Positions 19,396 through 56,891 of a stretch of 64,000 bases of DNA are shown here, piece after piece. Every line of letters begins with the position of its first letter. The first letter of the stretch is position 1. Both the position numbers and the translations under genes were made by a program. The DNA is from Dehalococcoidia bacterium (GTDB taxonomy: Bacteria; Chloroflexota; Dehalococcoidia; DSTF01; WHTK01), in the NCBI GenBank assembly GCA_965197795.1, contig OZ240228.1:813128-877127 (forward strand), read 5' to 3'. The notes below the pieces were generated by a model. It made no database searches. It was given only the letters and a program-made list of their open reading frames with translations, and was not told where the DNA came from.

Positions 19396-20669
19396 TTCAT
19401 CTCCACCAGCACCGTGGGAAGTTGGGCTGGACCACCGTTTTCAGGGGCAGTCGAGAGAGACGACAATCGAGTCCTTAGGCGCGTCAAGGACGGCTGAACA
19501 TAGTGATCGTCCATTCGGCGCGGACTGGTCCAGTTACCAGCCAGCGAAGCGACTGAACGCGAAACGAGCGTCGTCGCGAGAGTTGCAAAAGCCCTTCTAT
19601 AGCCGTGAGCGGTGAATGCCTCAACACCAGCCTGAGAACACGCGACAGCCAAATCCCTCGACCATTGTCGGTATGTCCAGGCCCCCGCCGTTATCCGTCT
19701 CCAGAAGGGGCCAGGCACACCAAATCCGATGCGCTCCGAATGAACAAATGCCCTTGCCCACGTATTGAAGGCCACGACATAGGCCTCCAACGCATCGAGA
19801 GCGGCCTTCGGCACGGCCACCTCGAAGGGCTGGACGGAACTCTTTGCCTTGAGGATCATGCGGCCTTGACCATTAGGAAGCCTGTGCAAGTCAGCGCCGT
19901 CTAGTCGAAGGAGGGCACCTATTCGTAGACCTCGATCCGCCAGTAGGCACAGTAGCGCCTCGTTGCGGGAGCCAATCCAGCCCTCACCGCGACTCAGGAC
20001 ATGCCGAACCGCTTCGGCCTCGTCGGGCGTGGGCATTCGGCCTCCACGACCACGAGACCAGCCAACGGGCAATCGGTAGCCGGTTCCGACTAACTCGGCG
20101 ACCTGTTGGAGAGCCTGATCGACATTGCCCGCTGGTTGGGGCAAGCCGAACTGTTTGAGCTCGACCTCCATCAGGAGTGCGAATGCTCGAGCCACACTGC
20201 GTCTCTGGGAAGCGAGCCATGCTGTAATGCTCCGTCCGCCATCTGACGCCATTCCACTAGCCAAGGTCTTTCCCAGTAGATCAAGGTCCGAATAGAACCT
20301 AACCAATGAGACCGGCTCGCCCAGGAGCGTTGTCGCAAGCATCAGCGAATCACGCAGTACCCAGGAGTATTGCCGAACTGTCGCCGCTGTGAAGCGGTTG
20401 GCGACCCGCCTGCCAAACTCCGCAATGAGCGCTGCGTCGTCTGCAGGTAGGCTGGCCACCCGCCCAGTTCGTCGCTTGAGGTCCCGTGACTCAGCGCCGC
20501 AACCTGGTAGAGCCTGCTGAACGTCAGTGCCGATCTTTGCAATCTGTTCGTCTAAGTCGACTGCCGATCTTTGCTTAGTAGTTTCCGTGTCAAGCTGCGA
20601 CCAGAATGTCTCGGTGTCTTCCGCAGAACGGCAACCAAGAAGGGGTTGCGCTGAAGTCGGCGCCTTCAC
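19392..20669 (-). CDS. tyrosine recombinase/integrase (true start probably downstream of 20669)
   Basis: C-terminal catalytic motifs AHGYRRAFAT...LAGNW...DHYV (H-x-x-R ... Y). An N-terminal SAM-like core-binding region is present. Repeat unit occ1 lies within the 5' region annotated by the ORF track. Confidence 0.7.
   Translation of the reverse strand: MKAPTSAQPLLGCRSAEDTETFWSQLDTETTKQRSAVDLDEQIAKIGTDVQQALPGCGAESRDLKRRTGRVASLPADDAALIAEFGRRVANRFTAATVRQYSWVLRDSLMLATTLLGEPVSLVRFYSDLDLLGKTLASGMASDGGRSITAWLASQRRSVARAFALLMEVELKQFGLPQPAGNVDQALQQVAELVGTGYRLPVGWSRGRGGRMPTPDEAEAVRHVLSRGEGWIGSRNEALLCLLADRGLRIGALLRLDGADLHRLPNGQGRMILKAKSSVQPFEVAVPKAALDALEAYVVAFNTWARAFVHSERIGFGVPGPFWRRITAGAWTYRQWSRDLAVACSQAGVEAFTAHGYRRAFATLATTLVSRSVASLAGNWTSPRRMDDHYVQPSLTRLRTRLSSLSTAPENGGPAQLPTVLVEMK
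20525..20581 (-). repeat. bipartite repeat unit, copy 1 (reverse orientation, degenerate B half)
   Basis: cagtGCCGATCTTTGCAATC-[14]-GACTGCCGATCTTTGCTTAGTAG, compared with reverse-complement unit GACTATCGATCTTCGGAGTC-[13]-GACTGTCGATCTTTGCTTAGTAG. Confidence 0.6.
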
Positions 20670-29936: not shown

Positions 29937-29939
29937 GTG

Positions 29940-30320: not shown

Positions 30321-30525
30321 GTCTCGCTCCTTCTGCCGACGGTAACCTACCGCCACTACAGGAAGCCAGAGCAACCTCAGTCATCCATTAACAATTGCTA
30401 ACTCTGTGTCCGGATTTCGCTGACGGGGAACAGTGCAAGCCAGCGACCAAAGTCTCCATTAGAAATCAGGCCGAAAAGTCCGGATTTCGCCGAAGACGTA
30501 CAGCAAGAGTCCTCGCTGTTCAGGA
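29940..30525 (-). mobile_element. IS3-family remnant (orfA plus left-end IR beginning TGAACAGCG...); orfB is deleted
   Basis: The minus-strand end at about 30525 begins TGAAC, and two GTCCGGATTTCGC direct repeats lie in the leader. It ends 2 bp before repeat unit copy 2. Confidence 0.5.
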
Positions 30526-30527
30526 CC

Positions 30528-30581
30528 GACTATCGATCTTCGGAGTCTGGCGATCGCCCTGACTGTCGATCTTTGCCTAGT
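30528..30581 (-). repeat. bipartite repeat unit, copy 2 (reverse orientation)
   Basis: GACTATCGATCTTCGGAGTC-tggcgatcgccct-GACTGTCGATCTTTGCCTAGT. Nearly the exact reverse complement of copy 5 (47899-47954). Confidence 0.8.
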
Positions 30582-32082: not shown

Positions 32083-32138
32083 CTACTAAGCAAAGATCGA
32101 CAGTCCCGCAGGAACCCGGACTCCGAAGATCGATAGTC
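32083..32138 (+). repeat. bipartite repeat unit, copy 3 (forward); start of a 297-bp segment near-identical to 48721-49016
   Basis: CTACTAAGCAAAGATCGACAGTC-ccgcaggaacccg-GACTCCGAAGATCGATAGTC. Confidence 0.85.
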
Positions 32139-32337
32139 TAGCCGTACAAGGTGGTCTGCTTTGGTCTAGGCGAAGACATGGCGTTACCCATCGAAAGCCA
32201 CCGCCGTGACCAGAGCCGAGCATACCGTTCCAGTCACTCGACTGCGAGCTAGCGCGGCAAGACAACGGTCAGCTCGAAGGGATAGCCTTTACTCGCCACC
32301 GCACGAACATGGTGGAGTGTGCACCTAGTGAACAGGC

Positions 32338-32655
32338 CTAGCGTCTCCCGAAGCCCCCGTCGTGCAGTACCGTCTTGCGGCTATGGCAGGTCTGGCACAG
32401 CGCCCGCAGGTTGTCAGCGGCATCGGTCCCACCTCGAGACAACGGCCGGATGTGGTCAATCACCGTAGCCCTGGCGCCGCAGGCTATACAGCGTGGTTGA
32501 CGAGCCAGCACCCTGCGGCGAAGGCTTTGCCACGCGGAACCGTAGCCTCGGCGCGCTGTTGTGGGACGCTGTGCCTGGTGAGCCAGGCAGCGCGCCGACC
32601 GCGTGAGCACGGTGCAGCCAGGCTCAGAACAGGGCGCGGGCAGCCGGCGACGCAT
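32338..32655 (-). CDS. phage-type HNH endonuclease (copy 1)
   Basis: CxxC ... HIRPLSRGG ... NLRALCQTCH. 105 aa. A paralog (~85% identical) is at 48975..49298. Confidence 0.7.
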   Translation of the reverse strand: MRRRLPAPCSEPGCTVLTRSARCLAHQAQRPTTARRGYGSAWQSLRRRVLARQPRCIACGARATVIDHIRPLSRGGTDAADNLRALCQTCHSRKTVLHDGGFGRR

Positions 32656-33011
32656 GGCCGAAGTATAGCGATGGAGGGTTTGGAGCCAACTCCTGAATCT
32701 GAGGTGGAGGGTTTTCAGGAAGTACTAGTAGACACCCAGCCTCCTAGTGATCGCGAGGCCTTTCCGCAGAACGATCCACAACCCTCCACACCATCCATGG
32801 CGGCCCGCGAAAAAGTTAAATCAGGCAATCCTTCCGACCGCGCAAAACCCGTCTTTCATTTTTCCGAAAAAACAGGGGTTGGTTTGGCACCCCGCCGGGC
32901 GGCCGTTTCGAGTCTGGCTCCGGGCGGATCAGACTCAAAACGTGTTTGGCACAAATCGGCAAGTTTTGTGCAAAAACAGGCCAAAAAGTGCACACCGCCG
33001 AGCAGGCGCCC

Positions 33012-33393
33012 ATGACTAGCGGGCGGATACCGAAGCAGAACGCCGACCGTCTGACGACGCATTCGTCGGAGGTCAACGAGGAGCTGCGGCTCCCCGGCAA
33101 AGTGCGTGCCCGGCAAGGTGCACCCACCGGCGGCTCCGGCCCACTGGCCGGAGAACGCACAGAAGTGGTATCGCCTGCTCCGGCGGTCGGGGCAAGCCGC
33201 GCTGCTCGACTACAGCGATTGGGCGCTGGCTTTGGCGGGCGGAGCTTCGAGAGATCAGCGCCGGACCCGACACGATTGGCGCGAGGATCGCTTCGCTTGC
33301 TCAATTGGTGTCAATGCCACGATCTCCCTGACCGCTCCTCATCAAGGTCAAACCGCTCTCCGGAAGCGTTGCCGGTCGCTGTCAGGGCCGTGA
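33012..33393 (+). pseudogene. phage terminase small subunit remnant (frameshifted by a 16-bp tandem duplication near 33100 and diverged at the 3' end)
   Basis: MTSGRIPKQNADRLTTHSSEVNEELRLPGKV matches the intact copy at 49511. ggcaaagtgcgtgccc is duplicated. The downstream frame gives HPPAAPAHWPENAQKWYRLLRRSGQAALLDYSDWALAL, then unrelated sequence. Confidence 0.5.
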
Positions 33394-34084
33394 CCCTCGC
33401 CCTCGAACGGGACTCCCCAGGAATTGCCTCTGCGCCGGGCGTGCACTCGGCGAGCACGGGGATGAGCGTCCTCAGGTGCGGGGTCAAGTGCGCCTCGTCC
33501 AGCAGTACCAGGCTATCGGTCCCCGCCATGGCGGCGTCTATTGGGCGCAGTGTCGATCCATAGCCGCGAAACAGGAGCCGTGAGCCGTACATCGGCAACG
33601 TACACAGGAGGACCGTCGGGCGTGACGGGTCGGCCGGCGCCCGCGAGGCGACTCCCCCGCGCAGCCGGATTACATCGAGCGCTGGTGCGGCTGGCAGGGC
33701 AGAAAGGGAACTGAGACGCTCCGCGACTCCGCCGAGAACATCTCTGGCATGTCCCGAGAGGCCGGCCGAACCGGGATCCGCGAGCACCTTCGCAAGTCTC
33801 TCGGCGTGTTCTGCGGTTGAGTCCACCAATAGGCGCCGGTTGACGACCCACCAAATACGGGTCGGTGCTGTCCGTTGCGCTGGCTCCCGATCCGCCTGCG
33901 ACGCAAGCCACCACACCGCGATGTCCAGGCACGCGGTCTTCCCTGCGCCTGTCGGAACGCCAACCTCTGCGGGCCACTCCTCGGTCTCAGCGACCCGTTC
34001 GGCCAAGCGCGCCTGCCAGGGAAAGGGCTCGCGCCCATTGATCGACCAGTAGAAGTCAGCGAAGGTCGGCGCGGGAGCCATCAT
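33311..34084 (-). pseudogene. cas3: Cas3 helicase (type I-G/I-U style, no N-terminal HD) N-terminal fragment of about 258 aa
   Basis: FADFYWSINGREPFPWQARLAERV...VGVPTGAGKTACLDIAVWW (Q motif and motif I). ...LRGG...TVLLCTLPMYGSRLLFRGYGSTLRPIDAAMAGTDSLVLLDEAHL matches the Cas3 helicase core. The ORF stops after ~258 aa where the terS remnant begins. Confidence 0.55.
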
Positions 34085-34119
34085 CGTTAACCGGGAAGGT
34101 GTTCGCTCGTCATGCCGGA

Positions 34120-34886
34120 CTACCGAGCGGTACGCAGAGCCCAAAGCCGCGCTGTCGCCCGGAGCCGATCGCGACCGGCCCTGAAATCGCTCCACTGAAC
34201 CACAGCTCGACGTGAGAGTAGGGAAGCGCTGGTTTGCCTGGTCGATTCACCTCCACGGGAGCGAGGTCGAGTGCACCCGGGACCAGCGCGGTACGCGATG
34301 GAGTGCATTAGTGCCGGGAACTGCGACCGGCTCACCGAGGCGCCGCGTTCGGTCCACTTCTTATACAGGAGGTTCCAGAGATCGAGATCTCCAGCCTGGG
34401 GCACGTTGATTACGGTGCTGCCGTCGTGATCTGGAACGAACGCGGCGGCACCAACAGTAGACGGGAGTGTCCCGGTCGTGACGCGGACGCGCACCGGCGA
34501 GTCCGAGGAGCCGAGGTAGCCACCCGGGCGGCGCGCCGACGAAGCGCATCAACGATCGCGTCCTCGCGCGGGTTCACCTCCCACGAGTAGCCAACGTGGG
34601 GATAGCGGGGGGCGACCCGCACTCCTGCGCGGCTGAGCGCACCCGAACGGCCCACGTACTCGTGGTGAGTCTCCTTGGCTGCGCTGTCCCCGTGCCGAAC
34701 GACGTACTGCGGCTGAAGCGGCTGGTGAAATGGTTTCGGGTCAGCATAGATGACCGGCGGCGGCAACTGCTCGAACCAATCCAGCTCCGCGCCATCGGTC
34801 ACTCGGCACGCCTCTCCCGTCCCGTCGGCAGCCACTAGTGCTGCGAACAGACGCACTGGAGACGGCTGCCACTCGCCACTGCTCAA
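34120..34886 (-). pseudogene. Csb2 (Cas5/GSU0054 family, type I-G/I-U) N-terminal fragment with an internal frameshift
   Basis: EWQPSPVRLFAALVAADG resembles the WPPSP.RLF.ALVAA signature of GSU0054/Csb2. The reading frame switches near 34495. Total coding is about 255 aa of an expected 500. Confidence 0.4.
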
Positions 34887-35237
34887 GAGACCGGTGTTGG
34901 CGGTCCTGTCCGGATCACCGCGAAACGTCCCGTGGCCGACCGAATGCCGCCGCCGGACAGGGCGAGGCCCACAAGGTTATTTGTTACAGAAGGCTTTCCG
35001 GGAGCGGGACGGCGTCACGCCCGACATCCTCTCGCTCCCTGCTTACCCATTTCTCGACCTCGTCCTCGAAGACAGGGTCGAAGGCAGGTCTGTAGTACTG
35101 CGATCCTTCCTCTGGGGAGCTACCGAGGGGGGGTTTACTGCACCTAGGAATCCCTTTAGATGTTTAGAAACATGCTCTCGCGCGCTTCTGAGGTTCATGT
35201 CGCCAGTTCCTCCTCTTCTTTGCAGGCCCAAAGTGGG

Positions 35238-36349
35238 CTACCACTGCCACCAGACGCTGTCCCACTCGGCCCGGAGGTCAGTGGATGCCCTGGTGGACAT
35301 GACGTCTGATGCCGAGACGGTCTCACCTGGCTGCAACTCTTGGCCGCCTGGGACAGGAGCGAGCCTCCATTGCCGTCCGGTGGGGACGGTACCCTCCGAT
35401 ACGGCGAGTGTCAGCCGTGGCCCCTTGGTGGTGTCTTCAGCTTTGACGACCGTGCCCCTGACCGTCTCGCGGAACATGTCCCATTCGGGCCCGGTAGCTT
35501 TCAGGAACGGGTTGCAAGCGCCCCGGAACGGACAATGATCACATGTCTCCGCCGACGGACTTGCGAGCGAGCCTTCGGACGGTGACCGGCTAACGGCCTC
35601 GTTGAACTCTTCCAGTAGCCGGTAGGCCTCCCTGCCCTGCTCCTCCACTAGGGCCTTGTCCAGTTGGGCCGAGACCCTGGTGCCGTCCGTCCTCTGCAGT
35701 GAGACGACGTCTGGCCACTCACCGTGCTGGTCATGCCAGATGAAGGCGTATAGGAGCAGCTGCCTCCCGTAGCTGGAGTCCGGCCCGAGGGAGGGTTCCG
35801 GCCAGGAGACTCCGTTCTTGATGTCGACTAGTTCTAGCCGGCCGTTGCCTGACTCCACGCGGTCGACCCGTCCGACGAGAAGACCGTCCTTTGTCTCGGT
35901 CCACTCCTCGACGGCTACGCTGCCACGCGCCGGTTGCCCGCCCGCTTCCCGTGGGGCAACCCTCCGGCGGGCTACTTCTGATACTGCATTGACAAGCCTT
36001 ACCCTGGTCAGTTGGTACCTCGGCCAGCGCTCTGGCGGAGGTGGTTGGAGTCCGTCCGGTTCGGACTTTAACTCCTCAACGCGAGCGGCGATCAGTGCCT
36101 CCCACTGTGACCCGACTGCGGTCTCAACCGCGTCTTCATCTAAGCCGTCAAACTCCCCGCGGGCCAGCGCCTCATAGACCCCGTGCACCGCAGTGCCGAG
36201 TAGGGCCCACGTGGACTGTTGCTGCGCCGCTGCGAAGCCCTCGTCCAGGCCGAATGCCACGCGGAGCTGACAAGACCGCAGTCCTTCCAATGTGGAGTGG
36301 CTGGCCCGCTTGAGTGGTGCGAATGTGACCTCGCCAGGCCTTTGCAAGG
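35238..36349 (-). CDS. Cas4-like PD-(D/E)XK nuclease with a C-terminal Cys cluster (start uncertain, overlaps the DruE-like stop)
   Basis: LELVDIKNG (D/ExK) and CDHCPFRGACNPF (Cas4/AddB-type Fe-S Cys motif). It lies immediately downstream of the 1793-aa helicase gene on the same strand. Confidence 0.6.
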
Positions 36350-39300
36350 TTAGGATCCGTTGAGCCAGCTGATGATGTCCACCGAGTGGTGCAGGAGCGA
36401 GAAAAGGTCGGAGGCCCTGATCTCCTGCGCCCCATGCCTCACCATTTGATCCTCCGCCTCCGCCTGCTCGGCTGTATAGAAGGAGCTGTCCGACCGCCAT
36501 AGAGGGTGACCGAAGAAGACTGCGCGGTGGCTGTCCGGCATCGATGCTGTCCAGAGCCCCCCGACCTGGTCGACCTGGGCCTCAGGGAAGCACTCAGCGA
36601 AGCCCCGTACAAGCCGGTCTGCCGTAAGTTGCCAGCGGCTGAAGTCCAATGGCAGGCCCCGGACAAGGTCGTTGACGTCGAGCGCCAGCCGCCAGTCCAA
36701 GAGTGCGTGGACGTGCCGGTTGTCGTAGTGCCGTAGGCAGTCTGGACATGACGTGAGGCACTCGTCCGCGTGGTCCTTCCTCAAGAATCGGTCGCCCAAG
36801 TCCTCTTCGATCCGCTTCAGTACCGAGTTGAGTACTTCAGGTCGGCCTAACTGTGAGCAGTAACCCGCGCCGTTCTCTAGAGTGTCGGCCAGGAAGACCC
36901 GGGCCGTGGGCTCGTCGCCAGAGGACACTGGCTGGAGGCCGGCCCTGACCTCGAGTGGCCCGACGTCCAGCTCAGTCGTGGCCGCTAACCGGAAGACCTC
37001 AGCGAACGACCACAGGGCCGCCCGGCCGGCCGGCATGTGCGCCCGGTTCGTGGAGATCACGCCAGTCGGGCCTGGCAGGTCCTGGCTTTCAACCGTCAAC
37101 GTCAGGACATCGGTCGGGCTGATGCTCCCGATCGCGGCTGTGAGCGTAGGCTCCCGGCCCGTGAGTCCGGCGACTCGGTGCGGTACTTCCGTGTACGTGT
37201 CAGGGTCAGCCACGACGTAGGAGTTGTGGTCGAACCGGTGCATGGCGAACAGCTTTTGGTCGTTGTCGTTGATGCTGAACAGGTCTGCCCCCGGGATAAC
37301 ATCGGTAGTCGCCCCCCCGACGTCGAAGCTGTCTGCGCCCGTCGGGCCATACGCGAGCTGGGGGAACCCGGCGCCGTAGCCACGCTCTACCTCGTCGTCG
37401 TAGTCTCCGGGTTGGAAGTCAGTCCGGAACCCCAATGGTTGGTAGAGGTCGAATGAGTCCATCGCGCTGTCGCACGCCGGGCAGTCGTCACCCGCTGCCT
37501 CGGCGACTGTGACCGCCTGGCAGACTGGGCACCTCCTTACGTGGACTGGTGTGCCTAATGGGTTGGTGACGGGGACCGGGCGGCTCCCTACGAATTCCCA
37601 GGCCGCGAACCCGATGGCCCGGTGGAGCTGCTTGTCCTTCAGCACTTCCGAACCTGGGGCGAAGCTCGATATGGCGATGTCGAGTGCTCGGTCGGATACG
37701 GCTGCACCGTCGTCGAGTGGGCCGCGCGGCGGGCGGCCGTAGAGCTCCCTTACTCGGCTCGGGAAGCCGAACATCGGCAGGACGCCGGCGTTAGCTAACC
37801 GCTCGCTCAGCTCGGGTTGGATGTACGTCTCACTGTTGACTATCTCGTCGATCTTCGCGGCAAGGCCTTCCCGAGCCCAGGCTGATAGGACGGCGAGGTC
37901 ATCGGCACTGAGCCCTGTAAAGGCTGTCAGGCGTTGGACAGCATCGCCTGCTTCCGCAGCATGGGCCAGCCAAGGTACGACGGAGTCCCTGTACTTGGCC
38001 TGCCAGTCGCTTGCGGCGCCGAAAGCGCCGTGCGTACTGTCCCGGGTTTGCCTTGGTCTCTGGTCAGCGGGCACCTGGAGGAAAGCGAGCCGGAGGATTT
38101 CTGAGGCGATCACCCTGCGCACGATTTCGGCCCGGTCGAGGTCGAGGTAAGGGGGAGGTGGCGGGTCGCCTGTAATCCGTTCTGAGTGCAGGAAGTAATA
38201 CTCGTCGTGCGAGCGGTCCCGACACAGCGTCAGGGCGAACGAGAACGGCTGCCCTTTACGGCCGGCTCGCCCGACGCGTTGTTGGTAGTTGAACCGCTGC
38301 GGCGGCATATTGGCCATCATCACGGAGCGGAGCGAACCAATGTCGACGCCGACCTCCATGGTCGTCGTCACGCTGAGGACGTCAATCCCGTGTGTCAGGT
38401 CGGTTTCCTTCGGTTCCCCGAGGAAGGCTCCTTTGAACCTCCTCTGGCGGCCGCGTTGTTCACTCAGCGGCTTCGTCTGCCCTGTCAGCTCCTCGACTGC
38501 GAGGCGGCGAGACTCGTCGCGAGTGAGCCAGGTGAAGTAGTCCTCGTCTATTCCGCCGGTCCAGACTTCCAAGCTGCCACTACAACCACGGAACGTGCAC
38601 GCTCCCGCCGCCTGGTGCAAGTGGAGGCGCGTGCACTTTTGGCACTTCCAGAGCTGCTCCCCAGACGCCCTCACGACGCTGAGTGCGGCCATCTGGAGGT
38701 TCCAGTTGTCGTCGACTACGCCGGACGACCTAAGGGCGTTCTCGACTGCAGAGGTCAGTTCCCCTTGCCCTATGGAGTGGTTGGCCGCGGCCCTTGCAAG
38801 GTACAACCGGAGTGGTGGCGGGACAGTTGTAGACGGGTACTGTTCTCCTTCGCGCGGGTGCCGCCCCGCCAGGCCGAGTACCCGGACGCTCCCGAGTATG
38901 ACTTCCCGCGCGGCTGCGTCTGGCAACGGGATGTCTGCCGTGCTCAGACGGGACGGTTCCAGGTAGCCGAGCCCGATGGACTCAAAGTCTCTTCCGGCGC
39001 TGTCGAAGAGTAACGTGGCGAGGTAGACCTCAAGCTGTCGTCTCAAGTCTTCCTCGACCTGGAGGCTTTCAGCTGGCGAAAGCTGCTGCCATGTCGCTCC
39101 TGTCGGGGGAGGGAACGCCCTCCACCACTCGAGGCCCCGTGGCCGTTGGAGGCTCGCCTTGGGGCCGCCGGGGTTGACGCCCAGTGTTGAGAGGGCTTGC
39201 TCTACTTTGGCGAGGAGGTCTGTCCAGGCGAGCCGGTCGCCCCTGTTGCCCTGCTGGGACTCGAAGTCCTCTATGGTGAGCTTCGCCTCCTCGTCGTCAG

Positions 39301-41731
39301 GGACGCGGTTCAGGATCCTGTAGGCTGCCCACACGTCAGGCCAGGTCCTCGCGTACAGGCTCCGTTGACTCTCCTCGTCGGGGCTGAGGTCAGCTCCAGA
39401 CGAAGCCTTCCTGAATAGGTCGGGAGCAGCGACTACCCTCTCTAGTTCTTTATCCATGACCTGCCGGACCAAGTTCCGGAAGTGGTTGAGTTCGAGCCCC
39501 GCAGCCGTTTGGGCAGCATCGTCGCGGCTGTCGTTGAAGACAATGGTGCGACCATCTTCGGGATTTTCGCCCATGGAGCGGACGAGGCGGTCGAGGACGA
39601 CCTGGCCCACGCGGGCGAAGCCCGTGCGGTGGCCTCTTATAGGGCTGCGCACAACCCCCCGGAAGAATGTAGACAGCTGCCTACTGTTTGGCTGCTGTGA
39701 ACCGCAAGCGGGACAGACTTCAGGCAAGGCCGCCACCTTGTGCCGTTCCGTCGGTATGTCGGCCACGTTCATAAATGTACCGGTCGCCGGACCCGCGGCT
39801 CTCGTGAGCATGCCTAGGCGGGGGTCGTAGTCGGCACCCAAAAGCGAGAAGGTGGTCCGCTTGCTCACACCGGGAGCGGTATGGTGCCAGGGGTCGAGCT
39901 TGAGCTCTGGGTCGTTCTGCCGCCTAGGCCAATACCACATGAACTCGCCCCATGTCCGGCGGTTTACCAGTGCCGACTCTTTAGAGGGGACGTCGTCTTC
40001 GGTAGGGCCGAGGAACCACTCCGTTGGTTGTGGGTCGGCAGTCCGGACCGCGAATCCGCCCAGGGAAACGTCGCCGCACTGGTCGCAGTACAGGAGCTCG
40101 AGGACTCGTGAACCACAGGAGCAAGTCGGGGTCGGCCGTGAGTAGAGGCGCCCGACCCTCCGTTGCGGGGAGTGCCAGTCGTCCTGGCCCGGCGCGCTAC
40201 AGTTGGGGTTGCTGCAGGCCCAGACCCCTGGGACGTTCCGGACAAACAAATGGGCACGGAACGGTATGGCATCCCCACCAGACTGGAGTGCCAACCCATC
40301 GAGGACTGCGTTCAACGCCGACGTGTCCCCATCGGGCTTGGTATCGAAGATGAGCTCTTCGAGGTCTCTGAGCTTGCGTGGCTTGACCTGACCGTCAGGT
40401 CCGGTGCAGGCCACTGCGACGACTGTGGCCACTTCCATCTCTCTGAGCGCCTTCCGTAGTGTGTCACTGCGGATCTCCGGCCCGAGGGCGTCGATTTCTC
40501 GGAGCGCCTCTCGCGACAGCGGCCTGGCCGCCTTCAGCGCCCGTGGCACGCCGGGGATGACGGTGAAAGTAGAACGGTCTACGCCGAAGAACTGCTCGAG
40601 GTACTCGTAGCTCGACTCTGAAGACTCCGGCAATGAGGCGCTGGTGCCAATGCACCTCAGCTGTGGCGAGTCCGGTGTCAGCCCGAGCCTGCTCAGGAAG
40701 TTGCGCACTACTAGCGCGACCTCTGTTCCTTGGGAGCCACGGTAGGTGTGAAGCTCGTCGACTACCAGCGTGAAGACATTTGACTTGTCCTCGGCTAGCC
40801 AATCCCTGGTCGCCCGGAAGAGGTGTGCCTCTCTCTGCCGCATCAGCATCACGTTGAGCATCGAGTAGTTCGTAACGAGGACGTCGGGCGGGGCCAAAAG
40901 CATGTCCCAACGGGTCAGGAGTTCCCCCTGGGTCGGGTCCGGGAACTGTGACCATAGTTCGAGGTCAGATATGCCGATGTCCCGCGACTCTGCCTCTATC
41001 TTGCGGAGCTCGTTCATAACCTCCCGGACGCGCTCCGTCCCCGTGTGCTCTGGGAGGTCGCCGGGTCCTAGCGTGACGCCGGTATAGCGGCCGAAGTAGA
41101 AACGCCTCCCACTGGAGCGTTCCCCGAGTAGGACCGCCCGGCGGAGGCGGGCTATCTGGTCTTCGACCAGCGCATTGGTCGGGTAGAGCACCGCAGCGCG
41201 GACTGCTGCCGTCCGGCCATCGTCTTTCCGCACACCACTAAACGGCTGCCGTCCCCTGGACTGGTCCCACCATTTGTCTGGTTGGGGCGGGGCGGGCCAA
41301 TTGTGGCGTTCTGCTTCCGACAACAGGCGGGCGAAGACGGGCAAGAGGAAGCTCTCGGTCTTGCCAGAGCCCGTCCCGGAGGTGACGACGGGGTTGTGGA
41401 CACCGCTGTCTTGAAAGGCGGCCCGGAGTGATGCGGCCTGGTGCGGCCTCAGTTTGAAACCCCCGTCCTCGGCTGAAAAGAGCATCCGGCCCAGCGTGTC
41501 TGCGACTGCTTGGCTGAGGCCGACGTCGGCACAGACCTGGCGTATCGACTCAACCGAGTCGTAGGGCAAGACCGGTTCAAGGAGCGGGTCGGTGAAGATG
41601 ACGTCGTCTCGGCTGAGCAGGTCGCGCCGCTCGGCCCGGATGCCAGGGTCGTCGAGGCGGAAAGCAGTATCGTAGTACCGGAGGTAGGCCTCACGGACCG
41701 ATGTGTAGACAGTAAGGGGCTGTGGGTTCAC
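36350..41731 (-). CDS. DruE-like giant DEXH-box helicase with zinc ribbons and a DUF1998-like C-terminal region (1793 aa)
   Basis: Motif I VTSGTGSGKTESFLLP, motif II VVDELHTYRGSQGTEVA, helicase-C MEVGVDIGSL...QRVGRAGRKGQP. Cys4 clusters CSNPNC...CSCGS...CDQCG and CPVCQ...CPACD. Size and architecture match Druantia DruE. Confidence 0.7.
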   Translation of the reverse strand: MNPQPLTVYTSVREAYLRYYDTAFRLDDPGIRAERRDLLSRDDVIFTDPLLEPVLPYDSVESIRQVCADVGLSQAVADTLGRMLFSAEDGGFKLRPHQAASLRAAFQDSGVHNPVVTSGTGSGKTESFLLPVFARLLSEAERHNWPAPPQPDKWWDQSRGRQPFSGVRKDDGRTAAVRAAVLYPTNALVEDQIARLRRAVLLGERSSGRRFYFGRYTGVTLGPGDLPEHTGTERVREVMNELRKIEAESRDIGISDLELWSQFPDPTQGELLTRWDMLLAPPDVLVTNYSMLNVMLMRQREAHLFRATRDWLAEDKSNVFTLVVDELHTYRGSQGTEVALVVRNFLSRLGLTPDSPQLRCIGTSASLPESSESSYEYLEQFFGVDRSTFTVIPGVPRALKAARPLSREALREIDALGPEIRSDTLRKALREMEVATVVAVACTGPDGQVKPRKLRDLEELIFDTKPDGDTSALNAVLDGLALQSGGDAIPFRAHLFVRNVPGVWACSNPNCSAPGQDDWHSPQRRVGRLYSRPTPTCSCGSRVLELLYCDQCGDVSLGGFAVRTADPQPTEWFLGPTEDDVPSKESALVNRRTWGEFMWYWPRRQNDPELKLDPWHHTAPGVSKRTTFSLLGADYDPRLGMLTRAAGPATGTFMNVADIPTERHKVAALPEVCPACGSQQPNSRQLSTFFRGVVRSPIRGHRTGFARVGQVVLDRLVRSMGENPEDGRTIVFNDSRDDAAQTAAGLELNHFRNLVRQVMDKELERVVAAPDLFRKASSGADLSPDEESQRSLYARTWPDVWAAYRILNRVPDDEEAKLTIEDFESQQGNRGDRLAWTDLLAKVEQALSTLGVNPGGPKASLQRPRGLEWWRAFPPPTGATWQQLSPAESLQVEEDLRRQLEVYLATLLFDSAGRDFESIGLGYLEPSRLSTADIPLPDAAAREVILGSVRVLGLAGRHPREGEQYPSTTVPPPLRLYLARAAANHSIGQGELTSAVENALRSSGVVDDNWNLQMAALSVVRASGEQLWKCQKCTRLHLHQAAGACTFRGCSGSLEVWTGGIDEDYFTWLTRDESRRLAVEELTGQTKPLSEQRGRQRRFKGAFLGEPKETDLTHGIDVLSVTTTMEVGVDIGSLRSVMMANMPPQRFNYQQRVGRAGRKGQPFSFALTLCRDRSHDEYYFLHSERITGDPPPPPYLDLDRAEIVRRVIASEILRLAFLQVPADQRPRQTRDSTHGAFGAASDWQAKYRDSVVPWLAHAAEAGDAVQRLTAFTGLSADDLAVLSAWAREGLAAKIDEIVNSETYIQPELSERLANAGVLPMFGFPSRVRELYGRPPRGPLDDGAAVSDRALDIAISSFAPGSEVLKDKQLHRAIGFAAWEFVGSRPVPVTNPLGTPVHVRRCPVCQAVTVAEAAGDDCPACDSAMDSFDLYQPLGFRTDFQPGDYDDEVERGYGAGFPQLAYGPTGADSFDVGGATTDVIPGADLFSINDNDQKLFAMHRFDHNSYVVADPDTYTEVPHRVAGLTGREPTLTAAIGSISPTDVLTLTVESQDLPGPTGVISTNRAHMPAGRAALWSFAEVFRLAATTELDVGPLEVRAGLQPVSSGDEPTARVFLADTLENGAGYCSQLGRPEVLNSVLKRIEEDLGDRFLRKDHADECLTSCPDCLRHYDNRHVHALLDWRLALDVNDLVRGLPLDFSRWQLTADRLVRGFAECFPEAQVDQVGGLWTASMPDSHRAVFFGHPLWRSDSSFYTAEQAEAEDQMVRHGAQEIRASDLFSLLHHSVDIISWLNGS

Positions 41732-44700
41732 GAAGTCACCTTTTCCCAGAGCAGCGATGCGACATCAGGGGGTACAGCCTGGTAGACGGAAGCCCTGTCG
41801 GAGCGACTAACCGGCGGCAAGCCAGAACAGAGCGTGGCCACGCGTCCGTAGAGTCCCGGCAGTTCGCTTCCGGCCCGGACGACCAATTCCTCCTCGGCAG
41901 GACTGTAGCTACAGGCCGGAGCCTCCGAGAGAGTGGCTGCCCACAACTTGGCGAGACGTGTCTCAGCCTGCTTGTAAACCTTTCCGTCATAGACAGCTAC
42001 TACTCGGGGGTGGGCTGGGAACCGATAAGCCGCGGTTTCGGTCAAGTCTGAGCAGTCCTGCCAGCGGTTAGATGGGGGGTCGAACTTTTGGACACCGAAG
42101 CGGGTAGGCGGAGTGATCTCGCGGGCCTGGGCCATCAGAGAAGAGAAGGGTGGCAATAGGGCGAGGGCTTCCCTTGTCGGGTCGGCACGTGCAGTTATCT
42201 CGTGGCCCAGGTCTGAGAGCTTCTCGGTGACGAATTCAACCTGACCACGCGTCAGTCCCTCCACCCTGTACCTTTTGGGGCCGTTGGCTGGCCGGGTAGT
42301 AACCACGTTGCCGCCAGCGTCCGAGACTTCTTTTTCTAGCGCCTCGACCAGCGTTTTGCTGCGTCGTCCACACAGCACAGCCGAGCCAGCGTCTGAGGAG
42401 AACGCCAAGACGGATGGCGCGACTGACCATGCCGTTGGTCGCATTTCCGCGGCGGAGAGCGCGACGTCGATATGGCCTAGGGCGACGAGTTGTCTCATGG
42501 ACTCGACAGCAAAGAGCGCAGAGTCTTCCAACTGCCTGGCGAGCTTCTCAAAGCTGCTCCAGAGGCCAGCGCCCTCGTAGGAGAGAGCTTCCAGGAGAAG
42601 GTCGAAGTCTTCTCCAGAAGTCGTGCGTGTAATGCCGAGGGCTGGCAAGAGCCTTGGCCGAAGGTCACGACGAGAGGACGGCAGTACCGTCTGGGCGCCG
42701 GTCTTTGGACGTCTCCTCCGCGGACTCGGCGGGAAGTGCCGGGACTTATTGCAGTTCTTACAGTAACCAGAGTGGGGACGATAGAAGCCAGAGAGGTTGG
42801 TCACCGCCTGAATGACCCAGTGGTGGGCACCTGTCAGACAGCCTTGGGCCGCGAGGGAGATTGGGGCAGTCTGGATAGCAGGGAGCTCATCGACTTCGTC
42901 CTCTTCTGGCCAAGGTTGAAGCTCCTCGGACAAGGCTTCAGGAGGGAGACCACTTCTGTTGCTGACCGCCTCTCCGTCTGAGGTAACGAGGACCCCTGAC
43001 AAGCTCGCGTTAGGGGCAGAATCGCTTGAGGAGGCTGATATAGCGCCAACTGGTGGGCCCGATAGGTCGTGACCAAACCAGGCGGTTGATGGCCCAGGAC
43101 GGGGGTGGTCAGCAGACCTGAGTCGTAGGGAAGCACTCGCGACGACCCTACCTCCGTCCTCTAAGAGGGCCAAGAAGTCGCCTTCTCCTAATCCACGTCC
43201 AGACAACTGGAGGACCGTGCTGCTCTCTACTGGCTCTTCGGCCAGCGCCACTTCTTTCGAGCGGTGTCCGTCCAATTCGTCAGCGTAGACCGCCAGCTTG
43301 AGGGTCTTCGTGTCGTGTGCGTTGGCGATCACGTCAGGCGGAGCGGAAACCAACCAGACGCTATTCCTGAGGCGGACTCCACCGTGGAGCTCGACCGACG
43401 TCCAAGACAGAGGCATCAAGGGGGACAAGTCGAGGTCTGTGCTGTCGAGGAGCCCGAGCACCTGCACGCTTGAGAACAGCGTCCAGCCTTCGGGCCCGTT
43501 CACAACTGTGCCCTGCGTGTGCCTCTTATAGCCGTCTCGTGCTATCCGTGTCAGCACGTCCTCCACACGGTCGGCCAACCGGTCAACAACTAGGAGCAGA
43601 CACTCGCGACCGAGCTCGACATTTCCGGCTTCGACGTACTCCCCGAGCGATTCGTCTGAGGTGAGGACGACGACGCTGCGGGGGTTTCGGACTATTGAGG
43701 AATCACCCTGGGAGGACTTAAGGTCAACCGTCCCGAGCAGGATGTCAGGGATAGAGACCAGCTCCGCGTCTTCAACTTCCAGCCAGCCCTTCACTTCACC
43801 TGGCCGGAGGTGGACTTCACCGCCAAGCTCTGCGAAAGCCAGCTGGGCGGCTTCCGCGGAACCAGGCTGCAGCACAAAAGGGCCATTCTGGAGCGAACCG
43901 GAGTCAGAGACGGCGAGTGAAAGCCTGAGGGTAGGGTGCGGCAGTCGCCTGAAAGTCGCGACGAGCGACAGACGCGCCCTCCTCCGGAGCGCGCTGTCGG
44001 TGGATTCCCGTGACACGCCGTCCCAGGCCTTTAGCTCTCCGCCGGCGATCTCAGCTACTCGTTCCCGGACTTCTACCCGGCGCCACAGCCGCTTCACCGT
44101 TTGGCTTAGCTTCGAGTGAGGGACCCAGTCCTGTAGGAGCCTCAGCATGTCGGCCCGGCTGATTACTTGGCCAGGCCGCAGGTCGTAGGCATCGAAGAGG
44201 TCGGGAAATGCCTCCCTGTCCTGTTCTCTTAACAGGGCCTGGGACAAAGGGATGCTTACGTGTATGCGGTGGTCGAGAGGGACAGCGGTCGGTACTCCGT
44301 GCTCACTTTCTTGTTCCCGCATCCAGGCGTTAAGTTGCCTCCAGAACTGGTCAATGGCGGCGTACTCTTCTTCGACTGCCTTTCGTTGTGCTTCCTGGAG
44401 GCCTAGTCCTTCGGTCAAGGGGGTGTAGAAGTTGTTACCGGCGTGCTCCAGGGTGTTCTTCATCCTGGAGGCGACCAAGCAGAAGAACGCCAGCAGGCCA
44501 ATGAACAGCGGGTGTCCACTACGACCTTTACTTGCCCAGTCGTCGAGGAAGACTTGGTGCCAATAGAAGAGGTGTGACAAGTCTCCGCCACGGTCCAACG
44601 TAGCGAGGACTGCAGACTGGAAGTCATCAACTGACCCCAGCTCCGCGTATTCACCTATCTCATTCAGTACGTCTTCGTCTGTATCTAGATAAACCGGACG

Positions 44701-44805
44701 GTCTCGGGCCACATCAGGCGAAAAGTACCGCTCGAAGATCGCGTCGTTCCAGTGGAGGTAAGGCCTCCACGCATTGAGTACTGGCCCCGAACCGGACTCA
44801 CCCAT
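41728..44805 (-). CDS. DruH-like large protein of unknown function (1025 aa), translationally coupled to the DruE-like gene
   Basis: 4-nt overlap with the downstream DruE-like start. Size and position fit DruH of type III Druantia, but no diagnostic motif is recognised. Confidence 0.4.
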   Translation of the reverse strand: MGESGSGPVLNAWRPYLHWNDAIFERYFSPDVARDRPVYLDTDEDVLNEIGEYAELGSVDDFQSAVLATLDRGGDLSHLFYWHQVFLDDWASKGRSGHPLFIGLLAFFCLVASRMKNTLEHAGNNFYTPLTEGLGLQEAQRKAVEEEYAAIDQFWRQLNAWMREQESEHGVPTAVPLDHRIHVSIPLSQALLREQDREAFPDLFDAYDLRPGQVISRADMLRLLQDWVPHSKLSQTVKRLWRRVEVRERVAEIAGGELKAWDGVSRESTDSALRRRARLSLVATFRRLPHPTLRLSLAVSDSGSLQNGPFVLQPGSAEAAQLAFAELGGEVHLRPGEVKGWLEVEDAELVSIPDILLGTVDLKSSQGDSSIVRNPRSVVVLTSDESLGEYVEAGNVELGRECLLLVVDRLADRVEDVLTRIARDGYKRHTQGTVVNGPEGWTLFSSVQVLGLLDSTDLDLSPLMPLSWTSVELHGGVRLRNSVWLVSAPPDVIANAHDTKTLKLAVYADELDGHRSKEVALAEEPVESSTVLQLSGRGLGEGDFLALLEDGGRVVASASLRLRSADHPRPGPSTAWFGHDLSGPPVGAISASSSDSAPNASLSGVLVTSDGEAVSNRSGLPPEALSEELQPWPEEDEVDELPAIQTAPISLAAQGCLTGAHHWVIQAVTNLSGFYRPHSGYCKNCNKSRHFPPSPRRRRPKTGAQTVLPSSRRDLRPRLLPALGITRTTSGEDFDLLLEALSYEGAGLWSSFEKLARQLEDSALFAVESMRQLVALGHIDVALSAAEMRPTAWSVAPSVLAFSSDAGSAVLCGRRSKTLVEALEKEVSDAGGNVVTTRPANGPKRYRVEGLTRGQVEFVTEKLSDLGHEITARADPTREALALLPPFSSLMAQAREITPPTRFGVQKFDPPSNRWQDCSDLTETAAYRFPAHPRVVAVYDGKVYKQAETRLAKLWAATLSEAPACSYSPAEEELVVRAGSELPGLYGRVATLCSGLPPVSRSDRASVYQAVPPDVASLLWEKVTS

Positions 44806-44908
44806 GTTCCACCTGCAATGTCCGTAGTCGTTCTCCCACGATTAAGAGATTGACGAATGCTAATCGCACTTAAGTGGAGGCGTAAAGGACTGAAGGTTGG
44901 AAGGTTCG

Positions 44909-45601
44909 TTACAAGGAAGAATCGCAGATGGATGTCAGCGGACACACCGTGCAGGCGGGCCTCACGTAGCGGCAGACTGTCGAACCGAGGTCGAGCAGTG
45001 CCCAGTTGAAGGTCATGTGCTGTGGTTCAGGCAAGAGCGCAGTGGCGAGCTCCTGGACGGGGCTCAGCCGAGGGGTGGGGCCTAGTTGGTCTCTGAACAC
45101 GCGTCCGAGCACGCGGACTACATTCGAATCGACTACCGCTGAAGGGACGTCGAATGCAAAAGACAGCACTGCACGAGCGGTATAAGGGCCGACGTGAGGC
45201 AACGCAGAAAGCTCTTCGAAGGAAGCAGGGATACTCCCGCCGTGTTTCTCCATGAGGACGCCCGCAAGCGCCTTCAGCCCGACTGCGCGCTGGGTATACA
45301 GCCCGACGGGCCTTAAAACACCTGAGAGTTCGTCTATCGGTGCGCGTCCCAAGCTTGCTAAGTCCGGGTACTGCTCCAAGAATTCTGGGAACGCGCGGGC
45401 TGCTGCGCGTGCCGTCGTCCGCTTCAGAAGCAGTTCTGCAATAAGCACCTCGTAAGGGGGGATGCCTCGGCGGCGCCAAGGAAATTCTCGGAACGCTGAT
45501 GGAGCCCACGCCAAAAGCAAACAGGCGAACTCGCTCAACGCCTTCGACACCTGGGTCTGGTTGCCGTTCTCCCCCACGTGACGAGCATAGCCTGGGTTCA
45601 A
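44909..45601 (-). CDS. HhH-GPD DNA glycosylase (MutY/Nth-like catalytic domain with a [4Fe-4S] cluster; no MutY C-terminal domain)
   Basis: PWRR...PYEVLIAELLLKRT, LGRAPIDELSGVLRPVGLY.QRA, LPHVGPYTARAVLSFAF...DSNVVRVLGR, C.YVRPACTVCPLTSIC. Confidence 0.7.
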   Translation of the reverse strand: MNPGYARHVGENGNQTQVSKALSEFACLLLAWAPSAFREFPWRRRGIPPYEVLIAELLLKRTTARAAARAFPEFLEQYPDLASLGRAPIDELSGVLRPVGLYTQRAVGLKALAGVLMEKHGGSIPASFEELSALPHVGPYTARAVLSFAFDVPSAVVDSNVVRVLGRVFRDQLGPTPRLSPVQELATALLPEPQHMTFNWALLDLGSTVCRYVRPACTVCPLTSICDSSL

Positions 45602-45689
45602 CCAGCTGTCCCATGTTCATGCAGGACGGGCCCGAGAGCCGAACATTGTTAGAATTCCCCAGCAGTACCCTCGCTACAGGTGGTAAGAG

Positions 45690-46436: not shown

Positions 46437-46438
46437 GA

Positions 46439-47755: not shown

Positions 47756-47796
47756 CACTTGCCCTCTAGAGGGATAATTTAGCTCTAAGCGAGCCA

Positions 47797-47818
47797 CATG
47801 TCGATCTTTGCTTAGTAG
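47797..47818 (-). repeat. repeat unit half-copy (reverse A half only), copy 4
   Basis: aTGTCGATCTTTGCTTAGTAG, 78 bp upstream of forward copy 5. The two form a short inverted pair. Confidence 0.6.
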
Positions 47819-47898
47819 CGCGTCACCTTCAGAGTCAACGGGCGTGGAGATAGGCGTCGGAGCAATCTGGTCGGGGGGATTCGTATCTCGTGGAAACA

Positions 47899-55277: not shown

Positions 55278-55293
55278 GCCCGTGACGACAGCG

Positions 55294-56828: not shown

Positions 56829-56891
56829 TCGCGCAGAATGCCGCGCAGTGACACGGTCGATGCGGACACGCCAATGCCCGCAAAAGGGTAA

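What the first reader, a model, noticed from the sequence alone, without database searches (positions are those of the whole stretch)
32083..33130. A 297-bp near-identical direct repeat (32083-32379 versus 48721-49016) continues as ~80%-identical HNH-terS homology
The first ~297 bp of the two copies differ only by a 1-bp indel. This includes the repeat unit and the inner TIR sequence. The following HNH and terS genes are only ~80-85% identical. That pattern suggests recent gene conversion or recombination confined to the TIR. The 16.6-kb segment between the copies (Cas remnants, Druantia-like genes, glycosylase, R-M) is therefore flanked by direct repeats and could be deleted or amplified by homologous recombination. 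At the left copy the terS is a pseudogene that runs straight into a truncated cas3. This suggests the left copy is an element of the same family whose interior was replaced by defense cargo.
Basis: seen in the sequence. Interest (0 to 1): 0.55.

Follow-up and report, generated by a model that had tools for sequence, protein, structure and literature searches.

The report
Recombinase-gene relic repeated by gene conversion
The near-identical 297-bp repeat is real, but it is not a transposon end: it is a dead stub of a tyrosine-recombinase gene joined to an attachment-site copy, left by mobile elements that pile up behind the dnaN gene of a Dehalococcoidia bacterium, and two copies were later homogenised by gene conversion.

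Summary
32083-32379 and 48721-49016 match at 295 of 297 positions (one indel, one substitution). Identity then drops sharply to 76% through an HNH gene, and terS homology ends near 33243.

The "TIR" reading does not hold. The repeated "unit" is the 5' coding sequence (TTKQRS...KID...LPGLG) of a tyrosine recombinase, YR-A. The intact gene lies at 19392-20669(-). With a second tyrosine recombinase and a large serine recombinase (LSR) it forms a trio that abuts the 3' end of dnaN.

A 41.4-kb composite defence island (about 16554-58002) sits in the dnaN 3' end, flanked by 26-bp direct repeats.

The 297-bp unit has four parts: the YR-A stub, about 90 nt of unassigned sequence, a degenerate dnaN-3' att core, and the HNH 3' end. 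The inverted third copy (58003-58239) lies at the island's right junction. It continues as a YR-A pseudogene for a further 750 bp.

The near-identity most likely reflects gene conversion between two diverged HNH-TerS satellite remnants.

Three related genomes lose synteny exactly at the first conserved YR-A codons. Those codons are invariant at DNA level despite rare codon use, which suggests a recombination site embedded in the gene.

The parts
32083..32379 (+). Left copy of the 297-bp repeat. It comprises a YR-A 5' pseudogene stub (about 32082-32200, frameshifted), about 90 nt of unassigned sequence, a degenerate dnaN-3' att core (about 32293-32312), and the 3' UTR plus last 13 codons of HNH.
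48721..49016 (+). Right copy of the repeat. It has the same composition and carries a 1-nt deletion relative to all other copies.
58003..58398 (-). Third, inverted copy. It consists of the 26-bp dnaN-3' direct repeat (58003-58028), a spacer, and a YR-A pseudogene covering codons 1-94 with an internal stop. DNA homology to the L011 element continues to 58983.
16528..16553 (+). Left attachment-site repeat (attL side): the last 26 nt of dnaN, TCATGCCGATGTTCGTTCAATGGTGA.
16500..18086 (-). Large serine recombinase (528 aa) at the island's left edge. Its 3' end overlaps the dnaN 3' end.
   Evidence: conserved next to dnaN in L003, L006, L011 and L014
18397..19395 (-). YR-B, a tyrosine recombinase of 332 aa. 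It overlaps YR-A by 4 bp.
19392..20669 (-). YR-A, the intact tyrosine recombinase (homologues are 400-455 aa). Its conserved region starts at 20581 (TTKQRS). The 'module' at 20520-20581 forms its first conserved codons.
32338..32655 (-). HNH endonuclease, left copy (105 aa, intact).
48975..49298 (-). HNH endonuclease, right copy (107 aa, intact; 82% aa identity to the left copy).
32892..33243 (+). Left terS pseudogene (Terminase_7). It is frameshifted by a 16-bp insertion and truncated.
49391..49939 (+). Right terS (Terminase_7), followed by TerL pseudogene pieces at 49936-50208 and 50371-50979.
33311..47756 (-). Cargo between the copies: Cas3g N-terminal fragment, DruK, DruE2, DruF2, HhH-GPD glycosylase, a restriction enzyme on the + strand, and a C5 methylase.
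47798..47819 (-). A 20-nt solo copy of the terminal block, inverted relative to the full stub at 47898. The two flank a 78-bp fragment of an Excalibur-like gene.
47898..47990 (+). Solo YR-A 5' stub of about 90 nt.
30508..30581 (-). Solo YR-A 5' stub of about 74 nt.
51970..57758 (.). Remainder of the right-hand satellite-like remnant: a second terS (Terminase_4, +), then on the - strand a 620-aa and a 387-aa protein (fused as a protein of about 1000 aa in relatives), an HTH_17 AlpA-like protein and a 288-aa protein.

Best explanation
The 297-bp repeat is a relic. It is the frameshifted first ~40 codons (about 120 nt) of a tyrosine-recombinase gene (YR-A), followed by about 90 nt of unassigned sequence, a degenerate copy of the dnaN-3' attachment core, and the 3' end of a phage-type HNH gene.

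These relics descend from a three-gene integration module: a large serine recombinase (LSR), YR-B and YR-A. The module is intact at 16.5-20.6 kb, at the left edge of a 41.4-kb composite island integrated in the 3' end of dnaN and flanked by 26-bp direct repeats.

Elements of this family repeatedly integrate at or into one another and then decay. They leave 'solo' stubs that all begin at the same nucleotide, the first conserved YR-A codons.

Two such stubs sit next to two diverged (76-82%) HNH-TerS packaging remnants of satellite-like elements that have no recombinase of their own. A non-reciprocal homologous exchange (gene conversion) between these two direct copies made 297 bp nearly identical. 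The tract started at the edge of homology and ended 13 codons inside HNH. Two mutations have accumulated since.

Shown: the repeat and the identity step; that the repeat is coding sequence; the island boundaries; the conserved trio; and synteny breaks at the stub's first base in three relatives.

Inferred: gene conversion as the homogenising process; that the stubs mark former element ends; and that the island's own recombinases act at that site.
For: (1) Identity step. The block is 295/297 identical, against 76% in the adjoining HNH and 86-87% to the third copy. The copy in L002 is 92% identical to the third copy and 88% to the left and right copies. The two direct copies are therefore far closer to each other than this sequence normally is.

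(2) The tract passes 67 identical nt beyond the att-core-like sequence into HNH. This argues for a homologous exchange rather than a site-specific one.

(3) The 'module' is coding sequence. TTKQRS(A/T)V...KI(G/D)...LPG.G is invariant or near-invariant in 10 homologues. Intact genes have 34-nt spacing of the two 13-mers. Solo copies have 32-33 nt and are closed in all frames.

(4) The third copy is a YR-A pseudogene: tblastn of P0050 aa 1-94 gives E=6e-30, and DNA identity to L011 is 95.7% over 813 bp.

(5) Island boundaries. In L002 the dnaN 3' end is contiguous with the sequence that in the window lies at 58003 onward. The 26-bp direct repeat occurs only at 16528-16553 and 58003-58028. The same attR-type core is found in L005.

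(6) The LSR-YR-B-YR-A trio lies next to dnaN in L003, L006, L011 and L014, and elsewhere in L012 and L013.

(7) Stubs truncate unrelated genes exactly at their first base. These are an OmpR-type regulator cut at Pfam model position 64 of 77, a TerL-homologous stretch (32006-32079 matches 50290-50363), and an Excalibur-like gene.
Against: There is no read-level or experimental evidence, so the direction and mechanism of the homogenisation are inferred from sequence alone.

About 90 nt of the unit, between YR-A codon ~94 and the att core, has no identified origin.

The two HNH-linked copies are inverted relative to dnaN, and I could not reconstruct the order of events that produced this.

A selective sweep of a functional non-coding site could in principle also keep two copies identical. 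However, the third copy and the L002 copy show the sequence tolerates 8-14% divergence.
Confidence: 0.6

Rival explanations
1. The repeat is the inner part of the terminal inverted repeat of a transposon-like element. Window 48720-58239 would be a complete 9.5-kb copy, and 32082 onward a copy whose interior was replaced by cargo.
For: The arms at 48754-48947 / 32082-32310 and 58011-58239 form a 194-229-nt inverted repeat. The stubs have a sharp common first base and cut unrelated genes. A 20-nt inverted partner exists at 47798-47819.
Against: The 58-kb arm is not a tip. Homology to an intact recombinase gene plus its upstream DNA continues 750 bp outward, and the arm's inner end is the island's att repeat. 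No transposase was found by Pfam, PHROGs or NCBIfam in 48720-58239. I saw no target-site duplication at the flanks. The 'TIR' sequence is recombinase coding sequence.
Confidence: 0.12
2. The near-identity comes from a recent site-specific event rather than from homologous gene conversion. On this view the island's recombinases inserted or exchanged the same ~260-bp miniature cassette, running from stub to att core.
For: The unit is bounded by two candidate recombination sites: the stub's first base and the att-core-like sequence. Synteny among relatives breaks exactly at the stub's first base. The same stub-to-core junction is shared by four copies in two genomes.
Against: Identity continues for 67 nt past the core-like sequence into HNH, where the two elements are otherwise 76% identical. 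At roughly 80% identity, a run of 67 matching nt has a chance probability of about 3e-7. A purely site-specific swap should end at the core.
Confidence: 0.15
3. One copy is an assembly or polishing artefact, such as a collapsed or duplicated repeat.
For: None was found directly. No reads are available, and the exact proteins of this region are not on record in other assemblies.
Against: Both copies have unique, unrelated flanks and differ at two positions. At 297 bp the repeat is much shorter than the surrounding unique sequence. Related assemblies independently show the same kind of stub in several contexts.
Confidence: 0.04

Closest known systems
SCC-type composite islands (CcrAB/CcrC large serine recombinases at the 3' end of rlmH/orfX) and Dehalococcoides ssrA genomic islands (PMC3146451)
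   Same: A large serine recombinase sits at the island edge. Integration is into the 3' end of a conserved single-copy gene whose end is restored. Short direct repeats flank the island. Successive elements accrete, and the cargo is variable. The LSR gives sub-threshold NCBIfam matches to XisF, CcrB and CcrC.
   Different: The target is dnaN. The recombinase module also carries two tyrosine recombinases. Relic copies are in both orientations. Scores are far below the curated family cut-offs.
Multi-tyrosine-recombinase elements: RIT (recombinase in trio), GInt, SE and Tn554 (reviewed in PMC10214605)
   Same: Adjacent tyrosine-recombinase genes overlap by 4 bp and are placed at the extreme end of the element. 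The conserved terminal sequence starts next to, or here inside, the first recombinase gene. Cargo lies beyond. A short inverted copy of the terminal ~20 nt is seen once.
   Different: There are only two tyrosine recombinases plus a large serine recombinase. No Tfp/Srap/TnpC-like partner was identified. No regular pair of terminal inverted repeats is present. There is no sequence similarity to those families.
Phage satellites (PICI/cfPICI-like) and cis-mobilisable element relics formed by accretion
   Same: The right-hand remnant carries HNH, two small terminases, a TerL pseudogene, an AlpA-type HTH protein and a primase/helicase-like pair. It has no virion structural genes and no integrase of its own, but it sits next to an att-like core.
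   Different: It is degraded (TerL is in pieces). No helper phage or induction data exist. Relatives of its primase/helicase pair sit next to a tmRNA-3'-like sequence, not dnaN.
Gene conversion between dispersed repeats (for example solo-LTR or IS-remnant homogenisation)
   Same: There is a sharp step from about 99% to about 76% identity. A third copy serves as a more distant outgroup. One end of the tract coincides with the end of homology.
   Different: Nothing unusual. This part of the finding is ordinary.

Membership tests
TIR-bounded DNA transposon | Terminal inverted repeats that mark the true tips of a discrete element | tested here: not met
   An inverted repeat exists. However, the 58-kb arm continues outward as a recombinase pseudogene plus upstream DNA for 750 bp and ends inward at the island's att repeat.
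TIR-bounded DNA transposon | A transposase encoded between the ends | tested here: not met
   Pfam, PHROGs and NCBIfam scans of all ORFs in 48720-58239 found no DDE, HUH or other transposase.
TIR-bounded DNA transposon | Target-site duplication | tested here: not met
   The flanks of 48720/58239 and 32082/47819 share no duplicated bases on inspection.
LSR-integrated genomic island | A large serine recombinase with Resolvase, Recombinase and Zn-ribbon domains at the island edge | tested here: met
   16500-18086(-) matches PF00239 at 3e-33, PF07508 at 3e-21 and PF13408 at 1e-9.
LSR-integrated genomic island | Flanking att repeats, with the target gene's end restored | tested here: met
   A 26-nt repeat lies at 16528-16553 and 58003-58028, with 3 mismatches and no other copy in the window. 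dnaN remains an intact 377-aa ORF.
LSR-integrated genomic island | An unoccupied site in a relative | tested here: inconclusive
   In L002 dnaN is contiguous with the sequence to the right of attR. That sequence is itself an element relic, so this is not a pristine attB.
LSR-integrated genomic island | Excision or integration activity | not testable with these tools
   This needs PCR or long reads, or an in vitro assay.
RIT / GInt / SE / Tn554-type tyrosine-recombinase elements | Tandem tyrosine-recombinase genes with catalytic residues, at one end of the element | tested here: met
   Two adjacent genes overlap by 4 bp. They give weak Phage_integrase hits. R...HxxR...Y columns are invariant in 10 homologues.
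RIT / GInt / SE / Tn554-type tyrosine-recombinase elements | Three tyrosine recombinases (RIT, GInt), or IntA-Tfp-IntB-Srap / TnpABC | tested here: not met
   The third gene of the conserved unit is a serine recombinase. No Tfp/Srap/TnpC-like gene was recognised.
RIT / GInt / SE / Tn554-type tyrosine-recombinase elements | Short imperfect terminal inverted repeats | tested here: inconclusive
   Only one short inverted partner was found (47798-47819, 20 of 22 nt). No partner lies near 16554.
Phage satellite (PICI-like) | Own integrase, AlpA-type regulator, replication module and packaging-redirection genes, with no structural genes | tested here: inconclusive
   The AlpA-like HTH_17 protein, two terS genes and HNH are present. 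TerL is a pseudogene. The primase assignment is weak (PHROG E=0.009). There is no integrase inside 48720-58002.
Gene conversion tract | An abrupt identity step, with a more distant third copy | tested here: met
   295/297 versus 76% in the adjoining HNH, and 86-87% to the third copy.

The most novel reading that the evidence does not exclude
The first conserved codons of YR-A (ACT AAG CAA AGA TCG ...) may double as the recombination site of an LSR plus two-tyrosine-recombinase platform. On this reading the platform sits behind dnaN and captures, swaps or deletes defence cargo exactly at that point, so each event also changes the recombinase gene's own leader and promoter.

Support:
- The five codons are identical at DNA level in six intact genes spanning 44-95% protein identity, despite using rare codons: ACT 11%, CAA 24%, AGA 4%.
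- Three related islands lose synteny with the window at that very base.
- At least five solo stubs in the window, and more in relatives, start there and cut unrelated genes.
Probability: 0.25. Interest if true: 0.7.

Novelty: new variant of a known kind. Interest (0 to 1): 0.42.

Why it matters
The repeat itself is ordinary: relics of integrated elements, homogenised by gene conversion.

What it led to is less ordinary. It is a conserved three-recombinase unit (one large serine recombinase and two tyrosine recombinases) that occupies the 3' end of dnaN in several Dehalococcoidia genomes. It carries different defence systems in each: Druantia, restriction-modification, AriA/OLD-like ATPases, QueC-like genes, and type I R-M.

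The boundary between the unit and its cargo is fixed to the base, inside the recombinase's own coding sequence. If that boundary is a working recombination site, this would be a cassette-exchange platform for defence genes in a poorly studied phylum. It would also be a source of new site-specific recombinases with a defined target.

For genome annotators the practical lesson is that 'TIRs' seen in raw sequence can be conserved gene starts.

Tried and rejected
Structured-RNA reading of the ~230-bp segment between the stub's first base and the att core:
- Rfam gave nothing at gathering threshold or at E<=10.
- Folding z-scores were only -1.6 and -2.4.
- There was essentially no covariation.
- No open frame exists in any of the six frames.

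Collection scans for the 230-bp pattern or the module found nothing in viral contigs or metagenome contigs. The phage collection has no DNA match. The 620-aa protein has no relative in viral contigs.

Exact-protein look-ups for the HNH genes, the 387-aa and 1025-aa proteins and P0001 were not on record. No independent assembly of the two junctions could therefore be examined.

Ideas considered and dropped:
- tRNA/tmRNA integration for the main repeat: ARAGORN found none.
- Tn7/Mu-type ends with transposase-binding repeats: there is no transposase.
- Iterons or cosB sites: the position relative to terS is inconsistent across loci.
- Integron attC or Xer/dif-like sites: the sequence lacks the required symmetry.
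- A simple inversion between 20581 and the second terS at 52 kb: there is no site at 52.4 kb, and identity to L006 is only 87%.
- The 230 bp as a simple internal deletion of the intact trio: the core-proximal ~90 nt matches nothing in the trio.

Literature searches found no description of dnaN-targeting islands of this kind.

Full report
**1. The observation**

Aligning 31900-33500 with 48540-50140 and counting by column gives the following picture.
- 32083-32379 and 48721-49016 are identical at 295 of 297 positions. The differences are a 1-nt indel at 32115 and a G/A substitution at 32118.
- To the left of 32082/48720 the sequences are unrelated.
- At 32380/49017 identity falls abruptly to 76% through the rest of a small HNH gene.
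- The HNH-terS spacer carries a 125-bp insertion in the left copy only.
- terS is 68-90% identical in 50-nt windows, and homology ends near 33243.

Both HNH ORFs are intact, at 82% amino-acid identity. The left terS is broken by a 16-bp insertion.

The motifs are far above chance: 11 matches against 0.11 expected for the 13-mer, and 7 against 0.11 for the terminal 16-mer.

**2.

The repeat finder shows a third, inverted copy at 58003-58239, 86-87% identical to the other two.

A short 'module' begins sharply at ACTACTAAGCAAAG and contains two AAGATCGAYAGTC 13-mers about 33 nt apart. It also occurs at 30508-30581(-), 47898-47990(+) and 20520-20581(-). A 20-nt piece lies at 47798-47819(-).

**3. 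Where we are in the genome**

A pattern scan of species-representative genomes found the module only in Dehalococcoidia MAGs.

The gene at 15420-16553 is dnaN. In locus L002 the 3' end of dnaN runs straight into the sequence that in the window lies at 58003-58239. The window therefore carries about 41.4 kb (16554-58002) inserted in the dnaN 3' end.

The insert is bracketed by a 26-nt direct repeat of the last dnaN codons, at 16528-16553 and 58003-58028. These differ at 3 positions, and no other copy exists in the window. The same right-hand core is seen in L005, 26.9 kb from dnaN in that genome.

A large serine recombinase (LSR, 16500-18086, minus strand) abuts the left repeat.

**4. What the 'TIR' really is**

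Next to the LSR lie two overlapping tyrosine-recombinase genes, at 18397-19395 and 19392-20669.

Homologues of the second gene, YR-A, are 400-455 aa. Ten of them share an invariant N-terminal motif, TTKQRS(A/T)V...KI(G/D)...LPG.G. That motif is encoded by the 'module': ACT ACT AAG CAA AGA TCG ACA GTC reads T T K Q R S T V.

Intact genes have 34 nt between the two 13-mers. The solo copies have 32 or 33 nt, are out of frame, and hit stops in every frame. The 'repeat unit / TIR' is therefore the start of a recombinase gene, and the solo copies are dead stubs.

The copy at 58 kb is the clearest case. tblastn aligns residues 1-94 of an intact homologue (P0050) to 58398-58117 with E=6e-30. Window 58175-58983 is 95.7% identical over 813 bp to the 5' part and upstream region of that gene in L011. 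In L011 it heads an intact YR-A/YR-B/LSR trio beside dnaN. Homology thus continues 750 bp beyond the supposed transposon tip.

**5. Anatomy of the 297-bp unit**

Reading from 32082 the unit consists of:
- about 120 nt of YR-A stub, up to about codon 94 of the homologues;
- about 90 nt that I could not assign;
- a degenerate copy of the dnaN-3' core, CCATGTTCGTGCGGTGGCGA against CCGATGTTCGTCCAGTGGTGA;
- about 25 nt of 3' UTR;
- the last 13 codons of HNH.

The same stub-to-core junction is shared by the left, right and 58-kb copies and by the L002 copy. It therefore arose once and has been carried around since.

**6. Why two copies are nearly identical**

The sequence normally tolerates 8-14% divergence: the third copy is 86-87% identical to the other two, and the L002 copy is 88-92% identical to the window copies. 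The adjoining HNH genes are 76% identical.

Two differences in 297 nt therefore need a recent exchange. The identical tract runs 67 nt past the core-like sequence into HNH. A swap made purely by a site-specific recombinase acting at the core should have stopped there. At roughly 80% identity, 67 matching nt in a row has a probability of about 3e-7.

Gene conversion is the simplest reading. The tract starts at the edge of homology and ends inside HNH. The 1-nt deletion is private to the right copy, since all other copies have the extra base, so it arose after the event.

Two differences in 297 nt (0.7%) is similar to the 0.8% divergence between the window and the strain contig L006. The event is therefore recent but not brand new.

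Direct repeats of this length and identity could support RecA-mediated loss of the 16.6 kb between them. This is plausible but untested.

**7. The elements attached to the stubs**

Right of 48720 lie, in order:
- HNH;
- terS (Terminase_7, about 32% identical to actinophage small terminases);
- TerL in pieces;
- a second terS (Terminase_4);
- a 620-aa plus 387-aa pair that is a single protein of about 1000 aa in relatives;
- an AlpA-type HTH protein;
- a 288-aa protein.

There are no structural genes and no integrase. This looks like a decayed phage-satellite-like element.

The left copy keeps only HNH and a broken terS, about 1.16 kb. It then meets an N-terminal Cas3g fragment, followed by DruK/DruE2/DruF2, a glycosylase and an R-M pair.

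My inference is that these satellites carried an att core with a decayed recombinase stub beside it and depended on the trio of a resident island. I could not test this.

**8. The stub's first base as a hot spot**

Three related islands share the trio with the window and lose synteny exactly there:
- L006 is 99.2% identical over 15 kb. It diverges after ...GCTTAGTAG, and a terS follows instead.
- L014 is 87% identical over 8 kb. Homology ends at window 20582, and the next 121 nt match window 21316-21436.
- L003 has a QueC-like gene next to that point.

In the window, solo stubs cut an OmpR-type regulator 13 residues short of the end of its domain, a TerL-homologous stretch, and an Excalibur-like gene.

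The five codons ACT-AAG-(C/G)AA-AGA-TCG are identical at DNA level in six intact genes of 44-95% protein identity. This holds although ACT, CAA and AGA are rare codons here, at 11%, 24% and 4%.

Together this points to a DNA-level function at the very start of YR-A, most simply a recombination site used by the island's own enzymes. This is inference. It is the 'novel case' rather than my main claim.

**9. Comparison with known systems**

The island works like SCC elements and the Dehalococcoides ssrA islands (PMC3146451). An LSR sits at the edge, integration is into the 3' end of a conserved gene, short direct repeats flank the island, and elements accrete.

The two overlapping tyrosine recombinases at the extreme end recall RIT, GInt, SE and Tn554 elements (PMC10214605). 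However, the third gene is a serine recombinase, and no regular terminal inverted repeats were found.

I therefore file the island as a new variant of known kinds. I file the repeat itself as ordinary relics plus gene conversion.

**10. Limits**

I had no reads. The exact proteins of this region are absent from other assemblies. The origin of about 90 nt of the unit is unknown. I could not reconstruct the order of events that left two stub-HNH units inverted relative to dnaN.

Noticed in passing
window 59898-59946 and 62145-62193; also 59059-59913: These are 49-nt direct repeats (86% identical) that resemble the 3' end of tmRNA (Rfam tmRNA, 14.9 bits, E=0.0032). They bracket 2.2 kb. The first directly follows a 5'-truncated large serine recombinase gene. 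The same sequence lies beside primase/helicase satellites in L008 and L009. This recalls the ssrA islands of Dehalococcoides. No intact tmRNA or tRNA was found in the window.
   Followed up: partly
window 32668-32795: A 125-bp insertion is present only in the left HNH-terS spacer. Its ends are imperfect inverted repeats (TGGAGGGTTTGG... / ...CCACAACCCTCCA), which makes it look like a MITE.
   Followed up: no
window 33093-33110 (approx.): A 16-bp insertion (CCCGGCAAAGTGCGTG), apparently a near-tandem copy of the following CCCGGCAAGGTGCAC, frameshifts the left terS.
   Followed up: no
window 20582-30507: The segment next to the intact trio carries more candidate defence genes. These are an AriA/AriAB- or OLD-like AAA_21 ATPase (26047-27750), a TM0106 RecB-like nuclease/helicase fragment (28464-29936), and an IS3/IS66-type HTH_Tnp_1 ORF (29940-30374). 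It also holds a pair of unknown genes of 391 and 401 aa (21010-23387). That pair is syntenic with the genes beside YR-A in L011.
   Followed up: partly
window 31450-31974 and 30530-31315: An AbiEi-like DUF6088 antitoxin gene has no recognisable AbiEii toxin partner. A 261-aa HNH protein lies beside it. Both sit in the 1.5-kb piece trapped between two oppositely oriented stubs.
   Followed up: no
window 51701-51876 and 63710-63849; L010 1407-1579 and 2566-2732: This is another short repeat family. It lies upstream of the second terS, is present as an inverted pair in L010, and has a relative near the window's right end.
   Followed up: no
L012 10001-18369: Two YR-A/YR-B pairs face each other around one 634-aa LSR. 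An LSR 5' fragment and a dnaN-3'-core-like sequence (14114-14134) lie inside the region. This looks like one trio element integrated into another, away from dnaN.
   Followed up: no
window 53415-56457: The 620-aa and 387-aa ORFs correspond to a single protein of about 1000-1076 aa in many relatives (P0010-P0016, P0024). The gene may therefore be split here. No Pfam, PHROG or NCBIfam family recognises the 620-aa part.
   Followed up: partly
window 16500-16553: The last 17 residues of the LSR are encoded on the antisense strand of the dnaN 3' end. Integration therefore sets the C-terminus of the recombinase. The same peptide can be read opposite dnaN in L002, which lacks the LSR.
   Followed up: no
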